DNA of 64,000 nucleotides, taken from IMG/VR virus record IMGVR_UViG_3300028840_001835. One strand, given 5' to 3'. The position numbers and the translations under genes are program-made. Below the pieces are notes generated by a model. That model worked only from the letters and a program-made list of their open reading frames with translations, was not told the origin of the DNA and ran no database searches. Source of the DNA: a virus (taxonomy: Duplodnaviria; Caudoviricetes). This document shows positions 1 through 50,153 of this stretch, piece after piece (position 1 is the stretch's first letter; each line of letters starts with the position of its first letter).

Positions 1-2
1 TG

Positions 3-878
3 CTCAGGGCGGTGAGATTTGCTTCTCGATTGGACCTCCAACTTGATCCAGAAGTAACAACAGCGATACAAAAGAGCTCCATTAAGATAAAGGACATAGC
101 ACCCGAGCGGGTGACCAAGGAGCTCCTTAAGATGGCGAAACAAAAGGGTGGTAAGTTCGCTGACGCAATCGTGAAACTGGATCAAGTTGGACTCCTTCAT
201 CATATACTTCCGGAAGTAGTAAAGATGAAAGAGTTTGAACATGATATAGAGAATCATCCCGAGGGCGGGGTGTATGCCCATACATTGGCAGCTCTTCGAG
301 CAAGCGATTCCAAGGATCCAATAGTTAATCTATCAATTCTGCTACATGATATTGGAAAGATCAAAACAAAGAAGATGGATGAGAAGGGACGGATCACCTA
401 TTTCCAACATCACAAAGAGGGTGCGGAGATGGTCGATCAGATAGCTCAGAGATTAAAATTGGACACCAAGACAAAAAACGCAATGAAGTTCGCCACTCTT
501 AACCATATGAAAATACACGACTTACTAAAGATGAGTAATAAGAAAATTATTCAATTAATGAATGATCCAAATTGGGCAACCCTTTTAGCGGTCGGGGAAA
601 TGGACGCACGTGCCCGCGGAAAGATGTTCAATAAGAAGGAGTGGGATGCCATCAAAGTCAAGATAGACGCCATTACACGGCAGTTCGCAGACAAGGGTAC
701 TGACGCCCTCACCAACATACGAAAAGTCGTTACAGGCTCTCTAATCATGCGCTTAAAGAGAATCAAGCCGGGACCAGCTGTTGGTCGATATATTCAAAAG
801 ACGGTCGATTGGATCGCGGACAATAACATAAATATTAAAGACGAGGCCAAGATAAAGAAATTTATCAAACAGCTATAG
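3..878 (+). CDS. cca: CCA-adding tRNA nucleotidyltransferase, C-terminal part with HD domain (5' truncated by window edge)
   Basis: LRAVRFASRL, ERVTKEL, HPEGGVYAHT, LLHDIGK motifs; frame open to window start; ends in TAG followed by the RBS of the next gene. Confidence 0.85.
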   Translation, partial: LRAVRFASRLDLQLDPEVTTAIQKSSIKIKDIAPERVTKELLKMAKQKGGKFADAIVKLDQVGLLHHILPEVVKMKEFEHDIENHPEGGVYAHTLAALRASDSKDPIVNLSILLHDIGKIKTKKMDEKGRITYFQHHKEGAEMVDQIAQRLKLDTKTKNAMKFATLNHMKIHDLLKMSNKKIIQLMNDPNWATLLAVGEMDARARGKMFNKKEWDAIKVKIDAITRQFADKGTDALTNIRKVVTGSLIMRLKRIKPGPAVGRYIQKTVDWIADNNINIKDEAKIKKFIKQL

Positions 879-886
879 GAGGAAAT

Positions 887-5166: not shown

Positions 5167-5595
5167 ATGAAGTATAGATGCATAGGATCAGAGTTTAGTA
5201 TAAAGGAGTTGGAGTCAGTCCTAAGAATATCTGTACGTTTCTATCTTGACAAGAAGGTGCATAAGAAAATCAAGCAAGAGTATGCGACCAAAGGAAACGA
5301 TATTATAATAGACTTGTTGTTTATGGACAACAGGCATCATACCCAACCAAATTATCATATACAATGGGACTTGGATCTTTCCGAATCAATGAAGAAAAGG
5401 AAAGAGACCAAAGAGGAATTCATAGATTTCTATGCACGGCAGGTCAAAGGAATAATAAATAATAAGGCAATGGCCCTTCTTGATTTAAGGAGCGAGGATG
5501 AAGGGTTAAGATTACTTTCACTAATCAGATTAAAACTTATCAAGATGAAGTTATTGAAAGAAGGAAAAGATGAAAGGAAGAGTTCTGATAGTTAA
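5167..5595 (+). CDS. hypothetical protein
   Basis: 142-aa ORF in operon; CATAAATA late-like box just upstream. Confidence 0.6.
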   Translation: MKYRCIGSEFSIKELESVLRISVRFYLDKKVHKKIKQEYATKGNDIIIDLLFMDNRHHTQPNYHIQWDLDLSESMKKRKETKEEFIDFYARQVKGIINNKAMALLDLRSEDEGLRLLSLIRLKLIKMKLLKEGKDERKSSDS

Positions 5596-13337: not shown

Positions 13338-13598
13338 ATGGACATGATGGATTATAAAATGGAGATGAAGAGGCAGAAGGAGCCAAAGAGGTATGTTCTG
13401 TTCTGTCCCGAAGTAGGTGATCGATCAGGTCTCGGGTTCAACTCCTTCGATGAGAGATATCGTAAAGGCGAAGGCAACTATATGCCCCATCTGATCAGGT
13501 ATGGAGCCATGTTAAAGTGGTATCAGATCGTTGACACCCAGAATGATAACAAGGTTGTGGAAGAGAATTTTCAGGACGAGGATGATGAATTATTATGA
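13338..13598 (+). CDS. hypothetical protein
   Basis: GAGG RBS, 86 aa. Confidence 0.55.
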   Translation: MDMMDYKMEMKRQKEPKRYVLFCPEVGDRSGLGFNSFDERYRKGEGNYMPHLIRYGAMLKWYQIVDTQNDNKVVEENFQDEDDELL

Positions 13599-14623
13599 AA
13601 GAGTTTAAGAAGTTTTCAAGTATAGAGAATAGTTACAGAGTCAAGTATCTGGAACTATTAAAACAGTATACTCTTGATGATGGTACATTTGTCGTATCAG
13701 AGAAGATACATGGTGCCAATTTTTCCATTTGGTACGATGGAACTGATCTCAAATGCGCCAAGAGAAGCGCCTTTCTAAAGGAGGATGATAATTTTTCCAA
13801 CTTTCAGGAAGTTCGTGATCGGCTACGTCCGAACATACAGAATCTTCACACCTTTCTTCGTGTGTCCCAGCAGAATATTGAGGACCCGCTCGAGGTCGCA
13901 GTGTATGGAGAACTGTTTGGTGGTTCGTATCCTCACAAGGATGTATCGGTAGATCCGGGGGCCAAGAAAATACAGAAGGGTATACATTATTGCCCTCACA
14001 ATGATTTCTACGCCTTCGATATAAGGGTAAACGGTGTGTACCTATCCGTACCAGAAGCCAATGATCTATTTAACAGGTTTGGGTTTCTTCATGCGGAGAC
14101 TTTATTTGAAGGTTCATTAAAGAACTGCCTGGAATATAAAAATGAATTCCAGACCACCGTCCCTGGTAAGTTTCAACTTCCACAGATTGATGATAACTTC
14201 TGCGAGGGTGTTGTTATAAGACCCGTAGAGCCAAGGTTTTTTCCTAACGGGTCCAGGGTCATTCTCAAGAACAAGAACGCCAAGTGGGAGGAAAAGAGTA
14301 AGGCAAGTGATAGAAAGCCAAAGATAGAGGTTCAACTGACTGACGAGGAACAAAGACTTTACCATGAATTTCATTCTCTCGTTACGGAGAACAGATTAGT
14401 GAATGTGTTATCCAAGTTCGGACCAGTTGGGCAAAAGGACTTTGGAAAGTTACTTGGGGAGTTCTCCAGGGATATATCGGAGGAGTTTAACAAGGATTTC
14501 AATGAGGCCTTCGGTGAGCTGAATAAGTCCGTTCAAAAAATTATCAAAGGTAAGGTCCAAAAGGCAGCAAGTAAGATAATAAGAGATCATTATGTGAACA
14601 TAATTGATGGAACATGGCCTTGA
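13595..14623 (+). CDS. rnlB: RNA ligase 2 family (T4 Rnl2-like)
   Basis: motif I EKIHGANF, YGELFG, FYAFDI, EGVVIRP, ILKNKN. Confidence 0.9.
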   Translation: MKEFKKFSSIENSYRVKYLELLKQYTLDDGTFVVSEKIHGANFSIWYDGTDLKCAKRSAFLKEDDNFSNFQEVRDRLRPNIQNLHTFLRVSQQNIEDPLEVAVYGELFGGSYPHKDVSVDPGAKKIQKGIHYCPHNDFYAFDIRVNGVYLSVPEANDLFNRFGFLHAETLFEGSLKNCLEYKNEFQTTVPGKFQLPQIDDNFCEGVVIRPVEPRFFPNGSRVILKNKNAKWEEKSKASDRKPKIEVQLTDEEQRLYHEFHSLVTENRLVNVLSKFGPVGQKDFGKLLGEFSRDISEEFNKDFNEAFGELNKSVQKIIKGKVQKAASKIIRDHYVNIIDGTWP

Positions 14624-16026: not shown

Positions 16027-16235
16027 TCTCCCTCCCATCCATCATGATATAACCGACGGCACTCTATACAACCGTGTGAGGAATCCATGTCTTTCGCAGT
16101 ACAACCATTGCAGTCATAAGAAGGATGTTCCACCTTTCCGTCGATACGAATCGCACCAGTTATCGTACACCAATCTACATTGGCAACCTCGATACTACTA
16201 TCCGATATCTTAACCCAGTTATGTTTAGCCATCAT
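16023..16235 (-). CDS. small Cys-containing hypothetical protein
   Basis: 70 aa, overlaps neighbours in operon. Confidence 0.5.
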   Translation of the reverse strand: MMAKHNWVKISDSSIEVANVDWCTITGAIRIDGKVEHPSYDCNGCTAKDMDSSHGCIECRRLYHDGWEGE

Positions 16236-17256
16236 CGTCCTCCTTGGTAATTGGTTTCAATATCTTCCAGATATACTCATCGTACCCCTTACCGTCAAGC
16301 ATCTTGAACACGACAGCCCACAGCTTATTGCTAATACTGTTCTTTATTGTGATTGCCTGCTCTTTCCTAGTAGAAAGATTCTTAACCCTCTCAAAGACAC
16401 CAAGGGCCAGAGCCTTGTTTGTATCGAACTCCTTCTCAAAGTTATCCTTGACCTCCTTGATCCACTTCTCAAACTCCTCAGGAAGATTCACCAGTATAGA
16501 ATCAAAGTCTGCACCATCCTTGAGCATCTCCCAAACAGCCTTCTCATTTAGACCGGTGACGATTCTGTGAAGTCTTACATACTCCTCAAACTTCATCTTT
16601 AGTCTAAACCCATTGTCAAACTTCACAACAAAGCCCTCAGAATTATTCTTATCATTCTTAGTTAGAACCCTAAAGTCCTTTACACCGTCATACTTCTTGA
16701 CGGTTGGCAAGGAAATATCATTAATTGAAAAATCAAACCCGGTCTCGTTATCTATGATGGCGAGAAGAAACAGATCTGTTACATCACCATAGTTTACCAC
16801 GATCCTGTTATCTGGATATATGATCTCAAACAGATAGGTGAATCCATCCTTGAAATGAAAATCCTTGTATCTATTTTCAAGTATCCTGTTGGCTACCCGA
16901 GCCTGCTCAGAGTCAAACGAACCGCGAGTTGCAATTCTGGGAGTACCATCGGGCATCTTGTATAAGATACCAAGAGAACCATCCAGCTTGTCATACACCT
17001 CAAAGGTCTCATTAGGTATCTGGATACCTAATCCAGGGAGCTCCTCATAGTTGAAAAACTTCGGGAAAGGCCGTGCAATTATCTCACCATACTCATTGAG
17101 TATCAACCCGCGACACATCATGTTGGTGCCGTTCCAACGCCTTTTGAACTGACAGTCCGGAGTGTAATTATATATGTAATAATCTACCTCTGGATGTTTC
17201 TTGACCATGACATTTCCAGCCTCAATCTCAGTCTGTATCTTATCTAGTAGAGTCAT
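16225..17256 (-). CDS. rnlA: RNA ligase 1 family (T4 Rnl1-like)
   Basis: CRGLI, PFPKFFN, KLDGSL, ATRGSF, FEIIYP, EGFVV, KMK. Confidence 0.9.
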   Translation of the reverse strand: MTLLDKIQTEIEAGNVMVKKHPEVDYYIYNYTPDCQFKRRWNGTNMMCRGLILNEYGEIIARPFPKFFNYEELPGLGIQIPNETFEVYDKLDGSLGILYKMPDGTPRIATRGSFDSEQARVANRILENRYKDFHFKDGFTYLFEIIYPDNRIVVNYGDVTDLFLLAIIDNETGFDFSINDISLPTVKKYDGVKDFRVLTKNDKNNSEGFVVKFDNGFRLKMKFEEYVRLHRIVTGLNEKAVWEMLKDGADFDSILVNLPEEFEKWIKEVKDNFEKEFDTNKALALGVFERVKNLSTRKEQAITIKNSISNKLWAVVFKMLDGKGYDEYIWKILKPITKEDDDG

Positions 17257-28401: not shown

Positions 28402-28480
28402 TGGTAGTCAGGGTGGGACTCGAACCCACACATTAATGCTTTTTGAAAGCACCGCCTCTACCAGATTGGGCTACCTGACC
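28402..28480 (-). tRNA. tRNA-Leu(CAA), short variable loop
   Basis: GTGCT TTCAAAA AGCAT anticodon arm, GGTTCGAGTCC, ACCA. Confidence 0.8.
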
Positions 28481-31071: not shown

Positions 31072-31086
31072 TTTATCCTATTTATA

Positions 31087-34276: not shown

Positions 34277-34284
34277 ACAATTAT

Positions 34285-34611
34285 TTATATTCCGTATACC
34301 TTATTTTTAATTTCCTGGATCACCTTTTCATCGACAGGCATGGTCTCGGGTCCAGGTCTCTCAATCTGTCTCCGGGTCCGTCCCTTCATCTCGCAGTAAG
34401 CAATATGATAATGACGGAAGTCCCTTCTCATGCCAAAGAGCTGTCCCTGCTCTCTCCAGACAGCTTCACCTTTTCTCTGCTTATCCCGAAGGTCTCTCTT
34501 AAATCTTCCAAGTCCCTTTGCCTTTAGTTTGATAACCTGCTTTAGTGCCCGAAATCTTTCTTTGGTGCCAATGATTGCGTCCAATCCTTTTTCGTCTATC
34601 ATAAGTTCCAT
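34285..34611 (-). CDS. basic hypothetical protein (RHYHIAYCEMKGR motif)
   Basis: GGAG RBS; directly downstream of the Pth2-like gene. Confidence 0.7.
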   Translation of the reverse strand: MELMIDEKGLDAIIGTKERFRALKQVIKLKAKGLGRFKRDLRDKQRKGEAVWREQGQLFGMRRDFRHYHIAYCEMKGRTRRQIERPGPETMPVDEKVIQEIKNKVYGI

Positions 34612-34693: not shown

Positions 34694-35026
34694 TCATGCT
34701 CCCTCCCTCATTAGTTTAAGGTTTGAGAACACCTTCCTCTTATCACCCTTAATGGGTGTCGTGGAGAAGGCCGTGATTATGTTACCAATATCCGGTTCCC
34801 TAAATATGTATGTCTTTATCTCTTTCTGTTTCGCCTTATATAATAATTTTTCAATCGTTTGTTCATCGGTGTTACAGAGTACCAAATGTGGATGTGTCTC
34901 TGTACCATTCATATACATTCTTGCCATCTCTATCGCTGCATGACAAGACTGAACACATTGTTGAGGGATAGAAAGATCGTCCCTCACAACAACATAAACG
35001 TATTCGGTTTCCTAGGTATGATTCAT
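34694..35026 (-). CDS. Pth2-like (peptidyl-tRNA hydrolase 2 fold) gene with in-frame TAG at codon 5
   Basis: ATG AAT CAT ACC TAG GAA ACC GAA TAC GTT TAT GTT GTT GTG AGG GAC GAT; YVYVVVRDDLS..QQCVQSCHAA, FREPDIGNIITA. Confidence 0.7.
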
Positions 35027-35027
35027 T

Positions 35028-35285
35028 TTATTTCACCTTCTTTTTAATCAATCGTATACTTGCTTCAATTTGTTTTAACTGCTTTTTCATTACCTGTACA
35101 TTCTCTGTGCCAAGTGCCTGTTCAAAAACTTCAATATTTTGTTTTAAAACATTAACCCTATCTTTCACATAAGCCGCGTATTCTAATCCACCTTCTTTTC
35201 TAGGCTTATATACGCCTCTCTGTTTCATCACTTTCATTACGCCAGCAAAATCGTCACCATCTTTCAAATAGTTTTTATAGTCCAT
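35028..35285 (-). CDS. CTS-like protein (MDYKNYLKD)
   Basis: TATAAATA at 35314-35321 and GGAG RBS upstream. Confidence 0.65.
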   Translation of the reverse strand: MDYKNYLKDGDDFAGVMKVMKQRGVYKPRKEGGLEYAAYVKDRVNVLKQNIEVFEQALGTENVQVMKKQLKQIEASIRLIKKKVK

Positions 35286-35323
35286 ATTGTCGCTCCTAAT
35301 GTTGATACATTAGTATTTATATT

Positions 35324-35399
35324 TGGTGCGTCCGGGTGGACTTGAACCACCAACCAGAGTGTTTAGAATACTCTGCTCTACGAGTTGAGCTACGGACGC
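35324..35399 (-). tRNA. amber suppressor tRNA (anticodon CTA)
   Basis: GCGTCCG/CGGACGC acceptor, GAGTA TTCTAAA CACTC anticodon arm, GGTGG TTCAAGT CCACC, ACCA. Confidence 0.8.
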
Positions 35400-35400
35400 A

Positions 35401-35478
35401 TGGTGCCCAGAGTGGGATTCGAACCCACACATTAATTGGCTCTCGACCAACCTCCTCTACCAATTGGGATACCTGGAC
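35401..35478 (-). tRNA. tRNA-Leu(GAG), short variable loop, C at position 33
   Basis: GTTGG TCGAGAG CCAAT; ACCA. Confidence 0.75.
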
Positions 35479-35492
35479 ATGATTAAAAGTTC

Positions 35493-35567
35493 TGGTGGAG
35501 TCGAGGGGAATCGAACCCCTATCTCCTGGGTGCAAGCCAAGCATGTTTCCGTTGTCACCACGACCCC
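35493..35567 (-). tRNA. tRNA-Ala(TGC)
   Basis: CTTGG CTTGCAC CCAGG; G3-U70. Confidence 0.92.
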
Positions 35568-35611
35568 TTTAATTTTATTTATATCTAACATGAATGGATT
35601 GGTTTACTGTT

Positions 35612-36028
35612 CTATTTGATTTTCACTTTTCTAGTCTGCGCGGATTCCTTTATAGGAATCTTTATAGTTAGCAGACCATTCTCCAGCTTGGCTTCAAGAT
35701 TGTCAAGTTCAAACTTGGCTCCTATCTTCCAGGCATGGTTGAATGATTTTCTTGTGATATGTCTGGCGATATAGTCTGACTCGGGAATATCCCGGGCCTT
35801 TTTATCGTACTTCACACCAAGGATATCCCCCTCAATGGAAATTTCTATATCGTCCTTCTTCAGACCAAGAGCTGCGATCTGTAGCTCCAATCCATCTGTT
35901 CTTTTGAGTATATCAACCGGGTAACCAATCTTCACAGAACCATCTTGTATCGGACCAAAACCCGTGTGTGATTCAAAAATGTTGCTGAATAGGATGTCGA
36001 ACTCATCCCAGTTAAATAGTGTAGTCAT
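35612..36028 (-). CDS. small heat shock protein (Hsp20)
   Basis: YPVDI, IAALG..KDDIEI, GI.RKSF-like HITRKSF, AKLENGLLTI. Confidence 0.9.
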   Translation of the reverse strand: MTTLFNWDEFDILFSNIFESHTGFGPIQDGSVKIGYPVDILKRTDGLELQIAALGLKKDDIEISIEGDILGVKYDKKARDIPESDYIARHITRKSFNHAWKIGAKFELDNLEAKLENGLLTIKIPIKESAQTRKVKIK

Positions 36029-36146: not shown

Positions 36147-36764
36147 TTATCTCAATTTGTCAAACATTCCGATGTTACCTTTACAGTATTCCTTCAACTG
36201 TTTCAACCAGGCGTCTGACTTGATCTTGAACATCATGGGATAGGAGAACTTCTTAGGCCTCTCGGCACCCTTACACACCACACCTTCAAATGTCATCCCC
36301 TCAAGTGTCGAATCCTTCACGCTGTCAACAAAGTCCTTGGTGACCTCTCCTCTATATAGAAGGCGGGCCTCGAACCCAGAGTCCCCAAATAATTTAAGGA
36401 ACTCCTGCGGTGTCATTAACCCCTGCTTATATACACTAACATCAATCAACTTGACCTCATGTATCTCTTTGGTATGCTGACCAAACATTGAATGTTCGCC
36501 TAAGTATTCAAAGAAACAGATAACCTTCTGATATCTCTGTCGTTTGAATATATGATTGAAGTACGGCTCCGTGTTCTTTATCAGCTGCTTTGCCTCACCA
36601 AGAAGCGGATCATTCTCATCTAGTAATCTCCTCCGGGAACCAAACTTCCAGAATCCTTTTCTATGATCCCACTCCGCACGAACATTAGAACCATCGAGTT
36701 TATCAAACGCATAGACCTTGCCTGAATGATTTTTATAATGTGCTATGGTCATATACTCTTTCAT
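36147..36764 (-). CDS. RNA-ligase-like nucleotidyltransferase (minimal catalytic domain)
   Basis: DKLDGSN motif I, FFEYLG, LIDV, EGVVCK, MFKIKS. Confidence 0.7.
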   Translation of the reverse strand: MKEYMTIAHYKNHSGKVYAFDKLDGSNVRAEWDHRKGFWKFGSRRRLLDENDPLLGEAKQLIKNTEPYFNHIFKRQRYQKVICFFEYLGEHSMFGQHTKEIHEVKLIDVSVYKQGLMTPQEFLKLFGDSGFEARLLYRGEVTKDFVDSVKDSTLEGMTFEGVVCKGAERPKKFSYPMMFKIKSDAWLKQLKEYCKGNIGMFDKLR

Positions 36765-41129: not shown

Positions 41130-41206
41130 TGGTGACCAGGGTGGGGGTCGAACCCACACTGAACAGGGTTTAAGCCTGATCCCTCTTCCAGTTGGGGTAC
41201 CTGGCC
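41130..41206 (-). tRNA. tRNA-Leu(TAA), short variable loop
   Basis: TCAGG CTTAAAC CCTGT; ACCA. Confidence 0.85.
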
Positions 41207-42401: not shown

Positions 42402-42813
42402 TGGTGGAGATGGCGGGAGTCGAACCCGCGTCCAAGAATCCTTCCTTATACACTTCTCCATGCTGAGTCCCCAGAACTTAATCGGTCGGACACCCCTGTG
42501 GACACAAATGCCCTGACCTATTCCTTGATATCCTCTACCACCTGTGTCTAAGGAAACCCTTCAGATGGTGTATCCTCCTTTATAACACCACTCCCCGGGC
42601 GGAGATAACTCCGGGGTAGGCGCCTATGCCCTCAAGCGTAGGTAGGGACTTGTGCCAGCCCGGTGAGAGCAGCGAACTGCATCACGAACTGAAGTCCTGT
42701 ATGATCTACGGTGTTGCCGTCTATCGTGTCTCTGGTTTTTTAAGAGGCCACCAGCACCTCTGCATGCTATGTATAGTTCTGCACCCCTGTCGAAGCCAGT
42801 TGTAAGCATCCCC
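42402..42813 (-). ncRNA. ssrA: tmRNA
   Basis: 5' GGGGATG, TTCGAC; 3' GACGCGGGTTCGACTCCCGCCATCTCCACCA with G3-U70; tag frame 42718-42632 after ATAGAC. Confidence 0.92.
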
Positions 42814-42816
42814 ATA

Positions 42817-43929
42817 TTATTTATAAATCAAAGAAGGAGTTTCCTCAGACCTAAATCGTATCACCTTATATGCCCCCAATTTAGTCTGAATAGCCTCCAC
42901 AAACTCATCCTCACTTCCAAATTCCTTCAATTCACCATTCTCCGTGAATCTCCATTCTCCCTCGACATGATCCAGGCAGGTGATCACCAGCTTGGAGAAA
43001 ACATTCGTCCTTAGACAATCATCGGACTCGATTGCATATCTCAACAGATCAAGATCAAGAACTGTCTTACGAAACTCACCCTGATACTCATGCATCTGGT
43101 TGGTCTCGTTTGGGTTGTCCTTTATATCATGATCTATGTGCTCATTTGTCATCGGGCCATTTCCATGCCGTGTCTGATATGCCCGGGTCACCATGTATAT
43201 ATCACGGCCTTCAAGTATCCTATCTGCGTCCTCGATCATCTTTAGAATATTCTTTGTACCCGTGTTTGATCTCGTCACGTGCGGGAAGAACCCTATATCC
43301 TTGTCGAGCAGCAACCCCTGCGAACCCTCAAAGACCTTCTCTCCGTCTGGCATCTCTGCGTTCATCGTTATCCACATTGGCATTAAATCTTCCAATGTAT
43401 CGACCGCTTTATAAAACTCACCAAGGTCCAGATCCTCGAATCCATAATACTTCTGAATCAGGTTCATCTTAATCTTAAGGACCGATGTATTAAACAGGTC
43501 CTTGAACCGTAGAGAGTAAAAGTTCTCCTCCCTCTCTATAGTCGCACCAAACCCGACCCCACAGGTTCCATGTTCCTTAGTCAATGCGCTGTGTTGATTA
43601 AAATGCCTATCAAAAGGTGTCGTTATAGGGCAGTCGGGGTGTATGGTCATATATGGGTCAGCCCCTTTAGCCTTCAGCACATGAAACTCGGTTATTAATG
43701 CCTCGGGATCGACTGTGCAGAATCTCGACCAGTAAGTGGGAATCCCACTCAATGTACCAGAACCGAAATTCGAGAACACATGGCGAACACCATCACGCAC
43801 GACGGTATGCCCTGCCTGGCTCCCTCCCGAGAACCTTACAACAACTGGGCTCTGGGCCTCAGAGCAAAGGTAGTCCGTGAGGATACCCTTGCCCGAGTCA
43901 CCAAAACCTAAGTCTATGACAGCCTTCAT
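42817..43929 (-). CDS. adenylosuccinate synthetase-fold protein (divergent PurA-like)
   Basis: GFGDSGKG, RFSGGSQAGHT, FEGSQGLLLD, PHVTRSNT, RAYQTRHGNGP, ITCLDH. Confidence 0.85.
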   Translation of the reverse strand: MKAVIDLGFGDSGKGILTDYLCSEAQSPVVVRFSGGSQAGHTVVRDGVRHVFSNFGSGTLSGIPTYWSRFCTVDPEALITEFHVLKAKGADPYMTIHPDCPITTPFDRHFNQHSALTKEHGTCGVGFGATIEREENFYSLRFKDLFNTSVLKIKMNLIQKYYGFEDLDLGEFYKAVDTLEDLMPMWITMNAEMPDGEKVFEGSQGLLLDKDIGFFPHVTRSNTGTKNILKMIEDADRILEGRDIYMVTRAYQTRHGNGPMTNEHIDHDIKDNPNETNQMHEYQGEFRKTVLDLDLLRYAIESDDCLRTNVFSKLVITCLDHVEGEWRFTENGELKEFGSEDEFVEAIQTKLGAYKVIRFRSEETPSLIYK

Positions 43930-47960: not shown

Positions 47961-48037
47961 TGGTGACCAGGGTGGGGGTCGAACCCACACTGAACAGGGT
48001 CTAAGCCTGCTCCCTCTTCCAGTTGGGGTACCTGGCC
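47961..48037 (-). tRNA. tRNA-Leu(TAG), short variable loop
   Basis: GCAGG CTTAGAC CCTGT; near-identical to 41130-41206. Confidence 0.85.
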
Positions 48038-50129: not shown

Positions 50130-50153
50130 TTGAATTCTCTTTTAATATTTATA

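What the first reader, a model, noticed from the sequence alone, without database searches (positions are those of the whole stretch)
34694..35399. Amber-suppressor tRNA next to a Pth2-like gene interrupted by TAG at codon 5: a candidate readthrough-gated translation-rescue switch
Seen: a full cloverleaf with anticodon CUA at 35324-35399. About 300 bp downstream, one base after the previous stop and behind a GAAGGTG SD, is ATG AAT CAT ACC TAG GAA ACC GAA TAC GTT TAT GTT GTT GTG (MNHT*ETEYVYVVVRDDLS...). The hydrophobic first strand of the Pth2-like domain (YVYVVVR) lies upstream of the GTG chosen by the ORF caller, so the intact domain needs the amber to be read. TAG is otherwise a normal stop here (878, 1129, 9003), so this is not genome-wide recoding. 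Established: very short minigenes cause peptidyl-tRNA drop-off (lambda bar minigenes) and Pth recycles peptidyl-tRNA. Inference: the phage makes this hydrolase only when its suppressor tRNA is expressed or RF1 is limiting, which is a translational feedback or timing switch. Both the tRNA and the gene sit behind TATAAATA late boxes.
Basis: partly seen in the sequence, partly recalled or inferred. Interest (0 to 1): 0.9.

Follow-up and report, generated by a model that had tools for sequence, protein, structure and literature searches.

The report
Stop-codon-gated tRNA-hydrolase gene with suppressor tRNA
A giant T4-like phage carries a tRNA that reads the stop codon UAG next to a small peptidyl-tRNA-hydrolase-like gene whose fifth codon is UAG, and the same pairing recurs in dozens of distant phages, including cultured ones, so it looks like a real, apparently undescribed translational gate that gives "orphan" phage suppressor tRNAs a natural target.

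Summary
A clean tRNA with anticodon CUA lies at 35324-35399(-). 298 nt downstream, an SD-led ATG-AAT-CAT-ACC-TAG opens a 110-codon frame. Read through, that frame is a confident Pth2 fold whose first strand (residues 9-15) lies upstream of the only later start (GTG, codon 14).

The TAG is neither an error nor a pseudogene mark.
- 39 of 66 non-identical homologous loci have SD-ATG, 0-7 further sense codons, TAG, then no start codon before the domain.
- Two loci have TGA instead, and exactly those carry a tRNA-UCA.
- Every early-TAG genome I checked beyond 3 kb (9 of 9) encodes a tRNA-CUA.
- The base after the TAG is a purine in 38 of 39 loci.
- dN/dS downstream of the TAG is 0.03-0.14.
- TAG otherwise ends about 18% of the window's genes, so this is not code 15.

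Best reading (0.7): the full-length protein is made only when the phage's own suppressor tRNA decodes the early UAG.

Its purpose (feedback, dosage or timing) and its hydrolase activity are unproven, and the canonical Pth2 Lys position is Gln. In relatives a neighbouring or fused HD-like gene, related to the HD domain of CCA-adding enzymes, is also TAG-interrupted.

This scan has noted the same motif before, in at least 38 other genomes. I found no paper describing it.

The parts
35576..35583 (-). TATAAATA box (T4 late-promoter consensus), 8 nt upstream of the tRNA-Ala/tRNA-Leu/tRNA-CUA cluster
   Evidence: 11 matches against 3.7 expected, 10 on the minus strand. That it is a late promoter is inferred from T4.
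35493..35567 (-). tRNA-Ala (UGC), first gene of the three-tRNA cluster
35401..35478 (-). tRNA with a Leu anticodon (GAG), second gene of the cluster
35324..35399 (-). Amber-suppressor-type tRNA. Anticodon CUA with U33 and A37. Class I (5-nt variable loop). G1-C72, C2-G71, G3-C70, A73. CCA is encoded. A31-C39 is a mismatch at the bottom of the anticodon stem.
   Evidence: ARAGORN; Rfam 59.3 bits; cloverleaf fold z -3.6; at most 71% identical to any other tRNA of the window
35314..35321 (-). TATAAATA box between the tRNA-CUA and the 85-aa ORF / Pth2-like gene pair
   Evidence: sequence
35028..35285 (-). 85-aa ORF of unknown function. Its TAA stop lies one base before the ATG of the gated gene.
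   Evidence: no Pfam or PHROG family; not similar to the ORF at the same place in phage BF
35034..35040 (-). Shine-Dalgarno GAAGGTG, serving the ATG at 35026
   Evidence: An SD before the leader ATG is also seen in the homologs.
35015..35026 (-). Four-codon leader ATG AAT CAT ACC (MNHT)
   Evidence: Homologs have leaders of 1-8 codons, mostly 2-3.
35012..35014 (-). In-frame TAG (codon 5), followed by G
   Evidence: An early TAG is conserved in 39 of 66 distinct homologous loci; the next base is a purine in 38 of 39.
34694..35026 (-). Pth2-fold gene, 110 codons when the TAG is read; ends with TGA
   Evidence: Pfam PF01981, E 1.2e-7; PDB profile hits to Pth2 chains, 2e-7; AF2 pLDDT 92.2; Foldseek TM 0.70-0.76 to archaeal Pth2 and Bit1
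34285..34611 (-). 108-aa conserved neighbour (motif FRHxHIAYCxLRGRTxxQIE), beside the Pth2-like gene in 12 loci
   Evidence: no Pfam or PHROG family

Best explanation
This is a suppressor-tRNA-gated gene. Ribosomes start at the SD-led ATG (35026), make Met-Asn-His-Thr and meet UAG. If release factor 1 wins, only a tetrapeptide results. If the phage's own tRNA-CUA, encoded 298 nt upstream, decodes the UAG, translation runs on in frame and yields the complete 110-residue Pth2-fold protein. The amount of protein therefore reports how much functional suppressor tRNA is present, meaning tRNA that is expressed, processed, carries CCA and is charged.

Shown here:
- the sequence anatomy;
- the fold needs residues upstream of any later start codon;
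- the early stop is deeply conserved;
- the stop type matches the linked anticodon;
- the frame downstream of the stop is under purifying selection.

Inferred: that the tRNA is charged and decodes this codon, and which residue it inserts. The tRNA has A73 and U35 and is class I. Other phages use class II tRNA-CUA, so the identity of the residue probably does not matter in this variable N-terminal tail.

More weakly inferred: the protein works on tRNA 3' ends as part of a tRNA-Sup + Pth2-like (+ HD-like) module. The gate would then tie production of that enzyme to suppressor activity, either as a feedback or dosage control on read-through or as a coupling to the phage tRNA programme.
For: 1. 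Anatomy.
2. The domain starts at residue 10, and strand 1 is residues 9-15 in a pLDDT 92 model. No ATG, GTG or TTG lies between the TAG and the GTG at codon 14, and that GTG has no SD.
3. Among 66 distinct homologous loci from IMG/VR, 39 have SD-ATG, 0-7 further sense codons, TAG and no start codon before the domain. Where no downstream ATG start exists, the stop after an SD-led leader is TAG 39 times, TGA twice and TAA never. The same holds in cultured phages BF, GAP32, Kaldavass, XbC2, ME3, RsoM2USA and Arash, and in the uncultured LR756511; CBB and fHe-Yen9-04 are represented among the IMG/VR loci (L048, L040).
4. A tRNA-CUA lies within 3 kb in 20 of the 39 early-TAG loci, often as the only tRNA. 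It is present in 9 of 9 genomes checked further out: BF, GAP32, LR756511, G001-G006.
5. The two early-TGA loci (L009, L067) carry tRNA-UCA and no CUA. They sit separately inside early-TAG clades (96/91 and 98/85 support). Their tRNA-UCA are 79-81% identical to tRNA-CUA of other loci.
6. The base after the early TAG is A 24, G 14, C 1. After ordinary TAG stops in the same loci it is A 54, T 50, C 44, G 41. From my own knowledge, a 3' purine favours amber suppression in E. coli.
7. dN/dS is 0.03-0.14, with dS 0.23-0.83, downstream of the TAG in the GAP32 group.
8. In two lineages the neighbouring HD-like gene also has an in-frame TAG, placed between invariant catalytic-type His residues.
9. The XacN1 authors found two tRNA-CUA and no target for them (PMC5852040).
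Against: - Nothing is experimental. Expression, charging and decoding by this tRNA are unproven, and no RNA or proteome data were available.
- TAG ends about 18% of the window's genes, and there is no enrichment of back-up stops after TAG. A strong suppressor should therefore be costly, which argues for weak or brief suppression.
- 13 of 18 homologs with an ordinary ATG start are also linked to a tRNA-CUA. Gating is therefore not the only reason for the linkage.
- A gate read only by a tRNA whose only known clients are the gated genes is circular unless the gate itself is useful, and that use is unknown.
- The window tRNA has an A31-C39 mismatch in the anticodon stem, which may lower its efficiency.
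Confidence: 0.7

Rival explanations
1. Read-through without the phage tRNA. The early UAG is leaky through near-cognate host tRNAs or poor RF1 action on very short peptidyl-tRNAs. The gene would then sense RF1 capacity or termination stress, and the tRNA-CUA linkage would reflect a shared function only.
For: Leaders are extremely short, mostly 2-3 codons and twice ATG-TAG directly. Ungated homologs are also linked to tRNA-CUA, so linkage alone does not prove decoding.
Against: The stop type switches to TGA exactly where the linked tRNA is UCA, twice independently. A tRNA-CUA is present in all 9 early-TAG genomes checked more widely. No stimulatory mRNA structure is evident (z -0.52).
Confidence: 0.12
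2. The real protein starts downstream of the TAG, at GTG 34987 or by re-initiation after the mini-ORF. The ATG...TAG would be a separate upstream mini-ORF that merely tunes initiation.
For: ORF callers and GenBank records annotate such truncated starts (GAP32_397; Arash gp84c at 50 aa).
Against: The GTG removes most of strand 1 of a confident fold. Homologs have no ATG, GTG or TTG between the TAG and the domain. The SD precedes the leader ATG, not the GTG. The leader, the stop and the domain are in one frame in all 39 loci.
Confidence: 0.05
3. Genome-wide or late-gene TAG reassignment (code 15, as in Lak and crAss-like phages). This gene would be just one of many recoded genes.
For: The phage encodes a tRNA-CUA, and only 64 kb of a genome that is clearly larger (earlier notes reach about 57 kb before the window) was examined.
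Against: Under code 11 the window is 87% coding. TAG ends 22 of 132 ORFs. TAG is not over-represented among upstream in-frame stops or same-frame ORF junctions. This is the only SD + mini-ORF + TAG case. Cultured relatives are annotated normally under code 11.
Confidence: 0.04
4. Assembly error or decaying pseudogene.
For: It is a single stop codon in a metagenomic contig.
Against: Contigs from two runs show 0 differences (not independent). The TAG is conserved in 39 distinct loci and in several cultured-phage genomes. dN/dS is about 0.1 downstream.
Confidence: 0.01
5. The tRNA inserts pyrrolysine (ARAGORN labels it 'Pyl') or another special residue.
For: The ARAGORN label rests on the anticodon alone.
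Against: The tRNA is an ordinary cloverleaf with an 8-nt D loop and a 5-nt variable loop, unlike tRNA-Pyl (my own knowledge). The motif occurs in phages of Enterobacteria, Acinetobacter and Xanthomonas, which have no Pyl system. The linked tRNAs are of both class I and class II.
Confidence: 0.01

Closest known systems
Stop-codon-recoded phages with phage-encoded suppressor tRNAs (TAG read as Gln, code 15; Lak megaphages, crAss-like phages; for example PMC6784885 and PMC13037316; Borges et al. 2022, from my own knowledge)
   Same: A phage-encoded tRNA-CUA reads in-frame TAG codons in phage genes, and it has been proposed that this times gene expression.
   Different: Here the genome keeps the standard code, and TAG ends about 18% of genes. 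Only one gene in the window is interrupted (two in some relatives). The stop sits in the first 1-8 codons. The gated gene is physically linked to the tRNA and is itself a tRNA-ester-hydrolase-like protein.
prfB (release factor 2) autoregulation through an early in-frame UGA
   Same: An early in-frame stop codon in a translation-related gene makes the yield depend on the competition at that stop.
   Different: prfB is rescued by a +1 frameshift and senses its own product. Here the frame is unchanged, and a dedicated suppressor tRNA with a covarying anticodon is the likely reader. Whether the product feeds back on the tRNA is unknown.
Archaeal/eukaryotic peptidyl-tRNA hydrolase 2 (Pfam PF01981; PDB 3erj, 2zv3, 1wn2, 1xty, 1q7s Bit1)
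   Same: Same fold (TM 0.70-0.76). Shared motifs are R-x-D-L, Q-x-x-H-A and the T-A strand.
   Different: This is a shorter variant. It lacks the 8-residue and 4-residue insertions of canonical Pth2. It has Gln where canonical enzymes have the GK lysine, and E-P-D in place of D-A-G. Activity and substrate are untested.
Orphan suppressor tRNAs of standard-code jumbo phages (XacN1, PMC5852040)
   Same: tRNA-CUA genes in jumbo phages that otherwise use TAG as a stop. XacN1 also has a homolog of this protein.
   Different: That paper looked past annotated TAG stops and found no target. The XacN1 and Xoo-sp13 homologs are ungated and fused to an HD-like domain. The early-TAG client described here is not in that paper.
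ArfA control by tmRNA and lambda bar minigenes (own knowledge; review PMC8012679 for rescue pathways)
   Same: Rescue and recycling factors whose synthesis depends on a translation defect. Very short SD-led ORFs end in a stop.
   Different: There is no evidence here for a non-stop mRNA, for drop-off or for toxicity. The short leader is in frame with the enzyme, not a separate minigene.

Membership tests
Pth2 (PF01981) peptidyl-tRNA hydrolase | Sequence match to the family model above the curated cut-off | tested here: met
   32.4 bits against a cut-off of 23, residues 10-105 on profile 3-114 of 115. A profile of 47 homologs hits the Pth2 chains 24bt_A at 2e-7 and 2zv3_A at 7e-7.
Pth2 (PF01981) peptidyl-tRNA hydrolase | Pth2 alpha/beta fold | tested here: met
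   AF2 pLDDT 92.2. The 15 best Foldseek matches are all Pth2-family chains (plus 2gax), TM 0.6-0.76, probability 1.00.
Pth2 (PF01981) peptidyl-tRNA hydrolase | Active-site residues proposed for canonical Pth2: the Lys of the GK loop and the Asp of D-A-G (Lys18 and Asp86 in S. solfataricus, recalled from memory and not verified here) | tested here: not met
   In the HMM alignment to 24bt_A and 2zv3_A, the GK(K) position aligns with Q22/Q23, and D-A-G aligns with E77-P-D79. E77 is invariant in 47 homologs, as are R15, D17, Q26, H29 and T85. It is therefore a conserved but altered site.
Pth2 (PF01981) peptidyl-tRNA hydrolase | Hydrolysis of peptidyl-tRNA or N-blocked aminoacyl-tRNA | not testable with these tools
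   Needs an enzyme assay.
Amber suppressor tRNA | Canonical cloverleaf with anticodon CUA, U33 and a purine at 37 | tested here: met
Amber suppressor tRNA | Aminoacylated, and decodes UAG on the ribosome | not testable with these tools
   Only indirect support: the linked gene's stop type covaries with the anticodon.
tRNA-Pyl | Short D loop, 3-nt variable loop, long anticodon stem (own knowledge) | tested here: not met
   The D loop is 8 nt and the variable loop is 5 nt; the cloverleaf is standard.
Stop-codon-recoded phage (code 15) | TAG inside many genes and rarely used as a terminator | tested here: not met
prfB-type autoregulatory recoding | Early in-frame stop bypassed by a +1 frameshift at a slippery site with an internal SD | tested here: not met
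   The domain continues in the zero frame directly after the TAG, in the window and in all 39 homologous loci.

The most novel reading that the evidence does not exclude
The tRNA-Sup, the Pth2-like enzyme and (in relatives) the HD-like enzyme form a self-contained homeostat. The enzymes act on the 3' end of the suppressor tRNA itself, deacylating it or otherwise resetting it, and they can only be made when that tRNA is active. Stop-codon read-through during infection is thereby held at a set level by negative feedback. This would be a portable, self-referential controller of genetic-code leakiness.
Probability: 0.2. Interest if true: 0.9.

Novelty: new variant of a known kind. Interest (0 to 1): 0.8.

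Why it matters
Many large phages that use the standard code carry suppressor tRNAs with no known purpose. The XacN1 paper says explicitly that no target gene could be found.

A conserved early stop codon that matches the anticodon, in a linked tRNA-hydrolase-like gene, gives these tRNAs a concrete natural client. In some lineages a linked HD-like gene carries such a stop as well.

The motif also has practical consequences:
- It explains a recurrent annotation gap: the gene is missing or truncated in BF, GAP32, Arash, ME3 and RsoM2USA.
- It offers a natural single-gene example of suppressor-gated expression, the logic used in synthetic biocontainment.
- It is directly testable, because several cultured phages of laboratory hosts carry it.

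If the enzyme acts back on the tRNA, it would be a new kind of translational feedback circuit.

Tried and rejected
- Megablast of the region against 50,697 phage records found nothing. The phage has no close cultured relative, and even a 496-aa protein finds only matches under 30% identity.
- BLAST of the 76-nt tRNA against relatives' genomes gave only noise. I switched to Rfam, pattern scans and ARAGORN.
- A pattern scan for suppressor anticodon loops missed the class II tRNA-CUA of G001 and G003. They were found only after fetching the tRNA regions.
- Back-up stops after TAG-terminated genes are not enriched: Mann-Whitney p 0.86 in the window, 0.89 in BF, 0.65 in G001. So there is no trace of selection against read-through.
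- There is no unusual mRNA structure around the TAG (z -0.52).
- There are no further amber-interrupted genes in the window, neither early nor internal. TAG is not over-represented among upstream in-frame stops.
- The amino-acid identity of the tRNA could not be assigned. Its best match among the window's other 37 tRNAs is 71%.
- The 85-aa ORF between the tRNA and the gene is not homologous to the equally long ORF at that place in BF. It and both conserved neighbour families have no Pfam or PHROG match.
- Five literature searches on suppressor tRNAs, recoding and Pth2 in phages found no description of the motif.
- A sixth search, for the catalytic residues of Pth2, did not yield them, so that point rests on memory.
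- I did not run complex prediction, because I claim no protein-protein binding. I did not search for RNA runs, because they cannot show read-through.
Full report
**1. What is in the window**

On the minus strand a cluster of three tRNA genes (Ala-UGC 35493-35567, Leu-GAG 35401-35478, CUA 35324-35399) follows a TATAAATA box at 35576-35583.
- The CUA tRNA scores 59.3 bits against Rfam tRNA and folds as a cloverleaf (-28.8 kcal/mol, z -3.6).
- It has U33, A37, a 5-nt variable loop, G1-C72, C2-G71, G3-C70, A73 and an encoded CCA.
- Its anticodon stem has four Watson-Crick pairs plus an A31-C39 mismatch.
- It is not a recent copy of any of the other 37 tRNAs of the window (at most 71% identity).

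Two bases after its CCA comes a second TATAAATA box (35314-35321). An 85-aa ORF follows (35028-35285). One base after that ORF's TAA, and behind GAAGGTG, comes ATG AAT CAT ACC TAG GAA ACC GAA TAC GTT TAT GTT GTT GTG....

**2. The interrupted frame is a real Pth2-fold gene that needs the TAG to be read**

- With TAG read through, the 110-residue product matches Pfam PTH2 above the curated cut-off over residues 10-105.
- A 47-sequence profile hits solved Pth2 chains at 2e-7.
- The AlphaFold2 model has pLDDT 92.2 with strand 1 at residues 9-15.
- Its 15 best PDB matches are archaeal Pth2, human Bit1 and the related 2gax, with TM 0.6-0.76.
- The only start codon after the TAG is the GTG at codon 14. 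It lies inside strand 1 and has no SD.

**3. The TAG is not an error and not part of general recoding**

- Contigs of two public runs carry the identical stretch at word depth about 23. They are possibly the source data and are not independent.
- Under code 11 the window is 87% coding, and TAG ends 22 of 132 greedily chosen ORFs.
- TAG is not over-represented among in-frame upstream stops (24 of 131) or among same-frame ORF junctions (22 against 47 TAA and 43 TGA).
- A scan for SD + ATG + 0-8 codons + stop + at least 70 open codons finds only this gene for TAG.

**4. Relatives: a deeply conserved early amber codon**

tblastn against GenBank phages finds homologs only in large phages. The gene is unannotated or truncated in several records.
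- In Serratia phage BF the frame reads MTH-TAG-NDKTWIYVFVR.
- In Cronobacter phage GAP32 it reads MAQ-TAG.
- In Erwinia phage Kaldavass and Xanthomonas phage XbC2 it reads MAH-TAG.
- In the 595-kb uncultured phage LR756511 it reads MTH-TAG.
- Acinetobacter phage ME3 (MT-TAG), Ralstonia phage RsoM2USA (ML-TAG) and Salmonella phage Arash (ML-TAG) show the same.

A pattern-plus-tblastn scan of IMG/VR gave 77 loci, of which 66 are distinct. They fall into these classes:

| Class | Distinct loci |
|---|---|
| SD-ATG, 0-7 further sense codons (mostly 1-2, twice none), TAG, 3-11 codons (30 in one locus) with no ATG start, then the conserved YVxVRxDL strand | 39 |
| Same layout with TGA | 2 |
| Ordinary ATG start | 18 |
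| Longer fusions | 3 |
| Unclear | 4 |

Where no downstream ATG start exists, the stop after an SD-led leader is TAG 39 times, TGA twice and TAA never. Downstream of the TAG, dN/dS among the GAP32-group genes is 0.03-0.14 at dS 0.23-0.83. The frame is therefore translated.

**5. The stop is matched to a phage-encoded suppressor tRNA**

- ARAGORN finds a tRNA-CUA within 3 kb of the gene in 20 of the 39 early-TAG loci, often as the only tRNA there.
- Where none lay within 3 kb, I looked further in nine genomes. All have one: BF (3.2 kb, annotated tRNA-Sup), GAP32 (3.1 kb), G005 (3 kb), G006 (7 kb), G002 (7.7 kb), LR756511 (8 kb), G004 (10 kb), G003 (about 30 kb) and G001 (about 158 kb).
- The two early-TGA loci (L009, L067) carry a tRNA-UCA instead and no CUA.
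- On a maximum-likelihood tree these two loci lie separately inside early-TAG clades (support 98/85 and 96/91). The alignment is short, so many other forks are open.
- Their tRNA-UCA are 79-81% identical to tRNA-CUA of other loci. This is two independent joint switches of stop codon and anticodon.
- The base after the early TAG is A in 24, G in 14 and C in 1 locus. After ordinary TAG stops of the same loci it is A 54, T 50, C 44, G 41. A 3' purine is the context that favours amber suppression in E. coli (Bossi 1983; Miller and Albertini 1983, from my own knowledge). Part of the bias may come from the purine-rich first position of sense codons.
- The linked tRNAs are of both class I and class II (86 and 93 nt in G001 and G003). 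The inserted residue probably differs between phages. That fits the stop lying in the unconserved N-terminal tail.

**6. The linkage goes beyond gating**

- 13 of the 18 homologs with an ordinary ATG start also have a tRNA-CUA 160-2500 nt away.
- The Pth2-like domain is fused to an N-terminal HD-like domain in Xoo-sp13, XacN1 and L011.
- The same HD-like protein is a separate neighbouring gene in 18 further loci.
- That domain has the HD-type invariant residues H...HD...H...D and weak Pfam HD hits.
- It aligns with the HD region of the window's own CCA-adding enzyme at E 3e-6.
- Its AF2 model (pLDDT 94.1) finds only 'tRNA processing enzyme' chains 3wfo-3wfs at probability 1.00, although the E-values are only about 0.03.
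- In the GAP32/BF/CBB/fHe-Yen9 lineage this HD-like gene has an in-frame TAG at codon 47, and in L044/L045/L047 at about codon 55. In both cases the TAG lies between the invariant N-terminal His and the HD motif, is followed by a purine, and sits at different alignment columns. GenBank annotates only the 46-aa N-terminal piece.

The suppressor tRNA therefore has up to two clients, both plausibly enzymes of tRNA 3' ends. The window itself has no stand-alone HD-like gene. Its module is tRNA-CUA, the 85-aa ORF, the Pth2-like gene, and a 108-aa protein of a family (FRHxHIAYCxLRGRTxxQIE) that neighbours the Pth2-like gene in 12 loci.

**7. How it most likely works**

- Shown: the anatomy, the need for read-through, the conservation, the covariation with the anticodon, and purifying selection.
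- Inferred: the phage tRNA-CUA competes with RF1 at codon 5, and the yield of the full-length protein is proportional to its activity.
- Why the stop sits at the very start (inference): non-suppressed ribosomes waste only a few codons and make no truncated fragment, and the tail tolerates any residue.
- What the gate is for is open. I consider three options.
  - (a) Negative feedback: the enzyme acts on the suppressor tRNA and limits read-through. This would explain why TAG can stay a common terminator.
  - (b) Proportional supply of a clean-up enzyme for by-products of suppression.
  - (c) Coupling of tRNA-end enzymes to the phage tRNA programme or to the late phase. The gene and the tRNA cluster each sit behind TATAAATA, and earlier first-reader notes on the same genome (unchecked) mention T4-type structural genes (neck 13/14, gp25).
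- I cannot separate these options with sequence alone.
- The protein should be called Pth2-like, not Pth2. It is a trimmed variant, with Gln at the canonical lysine position and E-P-D instead of D-A-G.

**8. Known or new**

- Five literature searches found no description.
- The XacN1 paper states that targets of its two tRNA-CUA could not be identified.
- A 2026 jumbo-phage survey discusses suppressor tRNAs only for recoded genomes.
- This scan has noted the same motif before on other DNA, at least 50 notes in at least 38 genomes. One of those was later priced at 85/100 for the observation and 20/100 for the bold 'self-contained switch' reading.
- I re-derived the key claims independently here.

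**9. Verdict**

I class it as a new variant of a known kind, namely suppressor-read in-frame stops in phages, here confined to a linked tRNA-enzyme module in standard-code genomes. Interest 0.8.

Noticed in passing
L038:3336-3899, L039:3336-3899 (phage BF), L050 (GAP32), L044:3327-3893: The HD-like gene next to the Pth2-like gene has its own in-frame TAG, at codon 47 in the GAP32/BF/CBB/fHe-Yen9 lineage and at about codon 55 in L044/45/47. The TAG lies between invariant His residues and is followed by a purine. GenBank annotates only the 46-aa N-terminal piece (BF_0405, GAP32_398). The same domain is fused to the Pth2-like domain in Xoo-sp13, XacN1 and L011.
   Followed up: yes
window 42402-42813 (-): The phage encodes a tmRNA (Rfam RF00023, 139.6 bits, E 5e-55). 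A TATAAATA box at 42818-42825 ends 4 nt before its 5' end.
   Followed up: partly
window 31079-31086, 34282-34289, 35576-35583, 42818-42825, 50146-50153 (-): TATAAATA boxes sit 4-16 nt upstream of the 5' ends of tRNA-Gly, tRNA-Val, tRNA-Ala, the tmRNA and tRNA-Cys. If they work like T4 late promoters (start about 6 nt downstream), four of these transcripts would begin at or within about 2 nt of the mature 5' ends, and the tRNA-Cys transcript about 10 nt upstream of it.
   Followed up: no
window 34285-34611 (-); L007:3418-3729, L064, L068, L071, L073, L076, L077, L079, L082, L083: An unknown family of about 100-125 aa, with an N-terminal coiled-coil-like part and an invariant core FRHxHIAYCxLRGRTxxQIE, lies directly beside the Pth2-like gene in 12 loci. 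It is downstream in the window and L007 and upstream in the ungated clade. It has no Pfam or PHROG match.
   Followed up: partly
L008:3409-3909, L012, L013, L014, L021, L026-L029, L031-L034, L036, L054: A second unknown neighbour family (about 150 aa, motif SRWGYHPC...W.RW.RK.P.NR) lies just downstream of the early-TAG Pth2-like gene in 16 loci. It is absent from the window.
   Followed up: no
window 28402-28480, 35401-35478, 41130-41206, 47961-48037 (-): The four tRNAs with Leu anticodons are only 77-79 nt long. They lack the long variable arm of bacterial class II tRNA-Leu.
   Followed up: no
window 1-880 (+), 13595-14623 (+), 16225-17256 (-), 36147-36764 (-): The window holds a dense tRNA-repair set: a CCA-adding enzyme with an HD domain (ends in TAG at 878-880), a T4 Rnl2-like ligase, a T4 Rnl1-like ligase, and a third RNA_ligase-domain protein two genes from the tRNA-CUA. 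There is also an Hsp20 at 35612-36028.
   Followed up: partly
L161 (Salmonella phage Arash OQ632216) 5301-5375; L159 (ME3); L001 (BF); L160 (RsoM2USA): Several annotation slips appear in public records. The Arash tRNA annotated as tRNA-Phe has anticodon CTA by ARAGORN. The Pth2-like gene is unannotated in BF and RsoM2USA and truncated in GAP32, Arash (50 aa) and ME3.
   Followed up: partly
L123:7265-7425 (G001, 527-kb phage contig); L007:5610-5681: G001 has an 86-nt class II tRNA-CUA directly next to a tRNA-UUA (ochre type). L007, the window's closest relative, has a tRNA-UCA 2.3 kb downstream of the gene as well as a tRNA-CUA just upstream of it.
   Followed up: no
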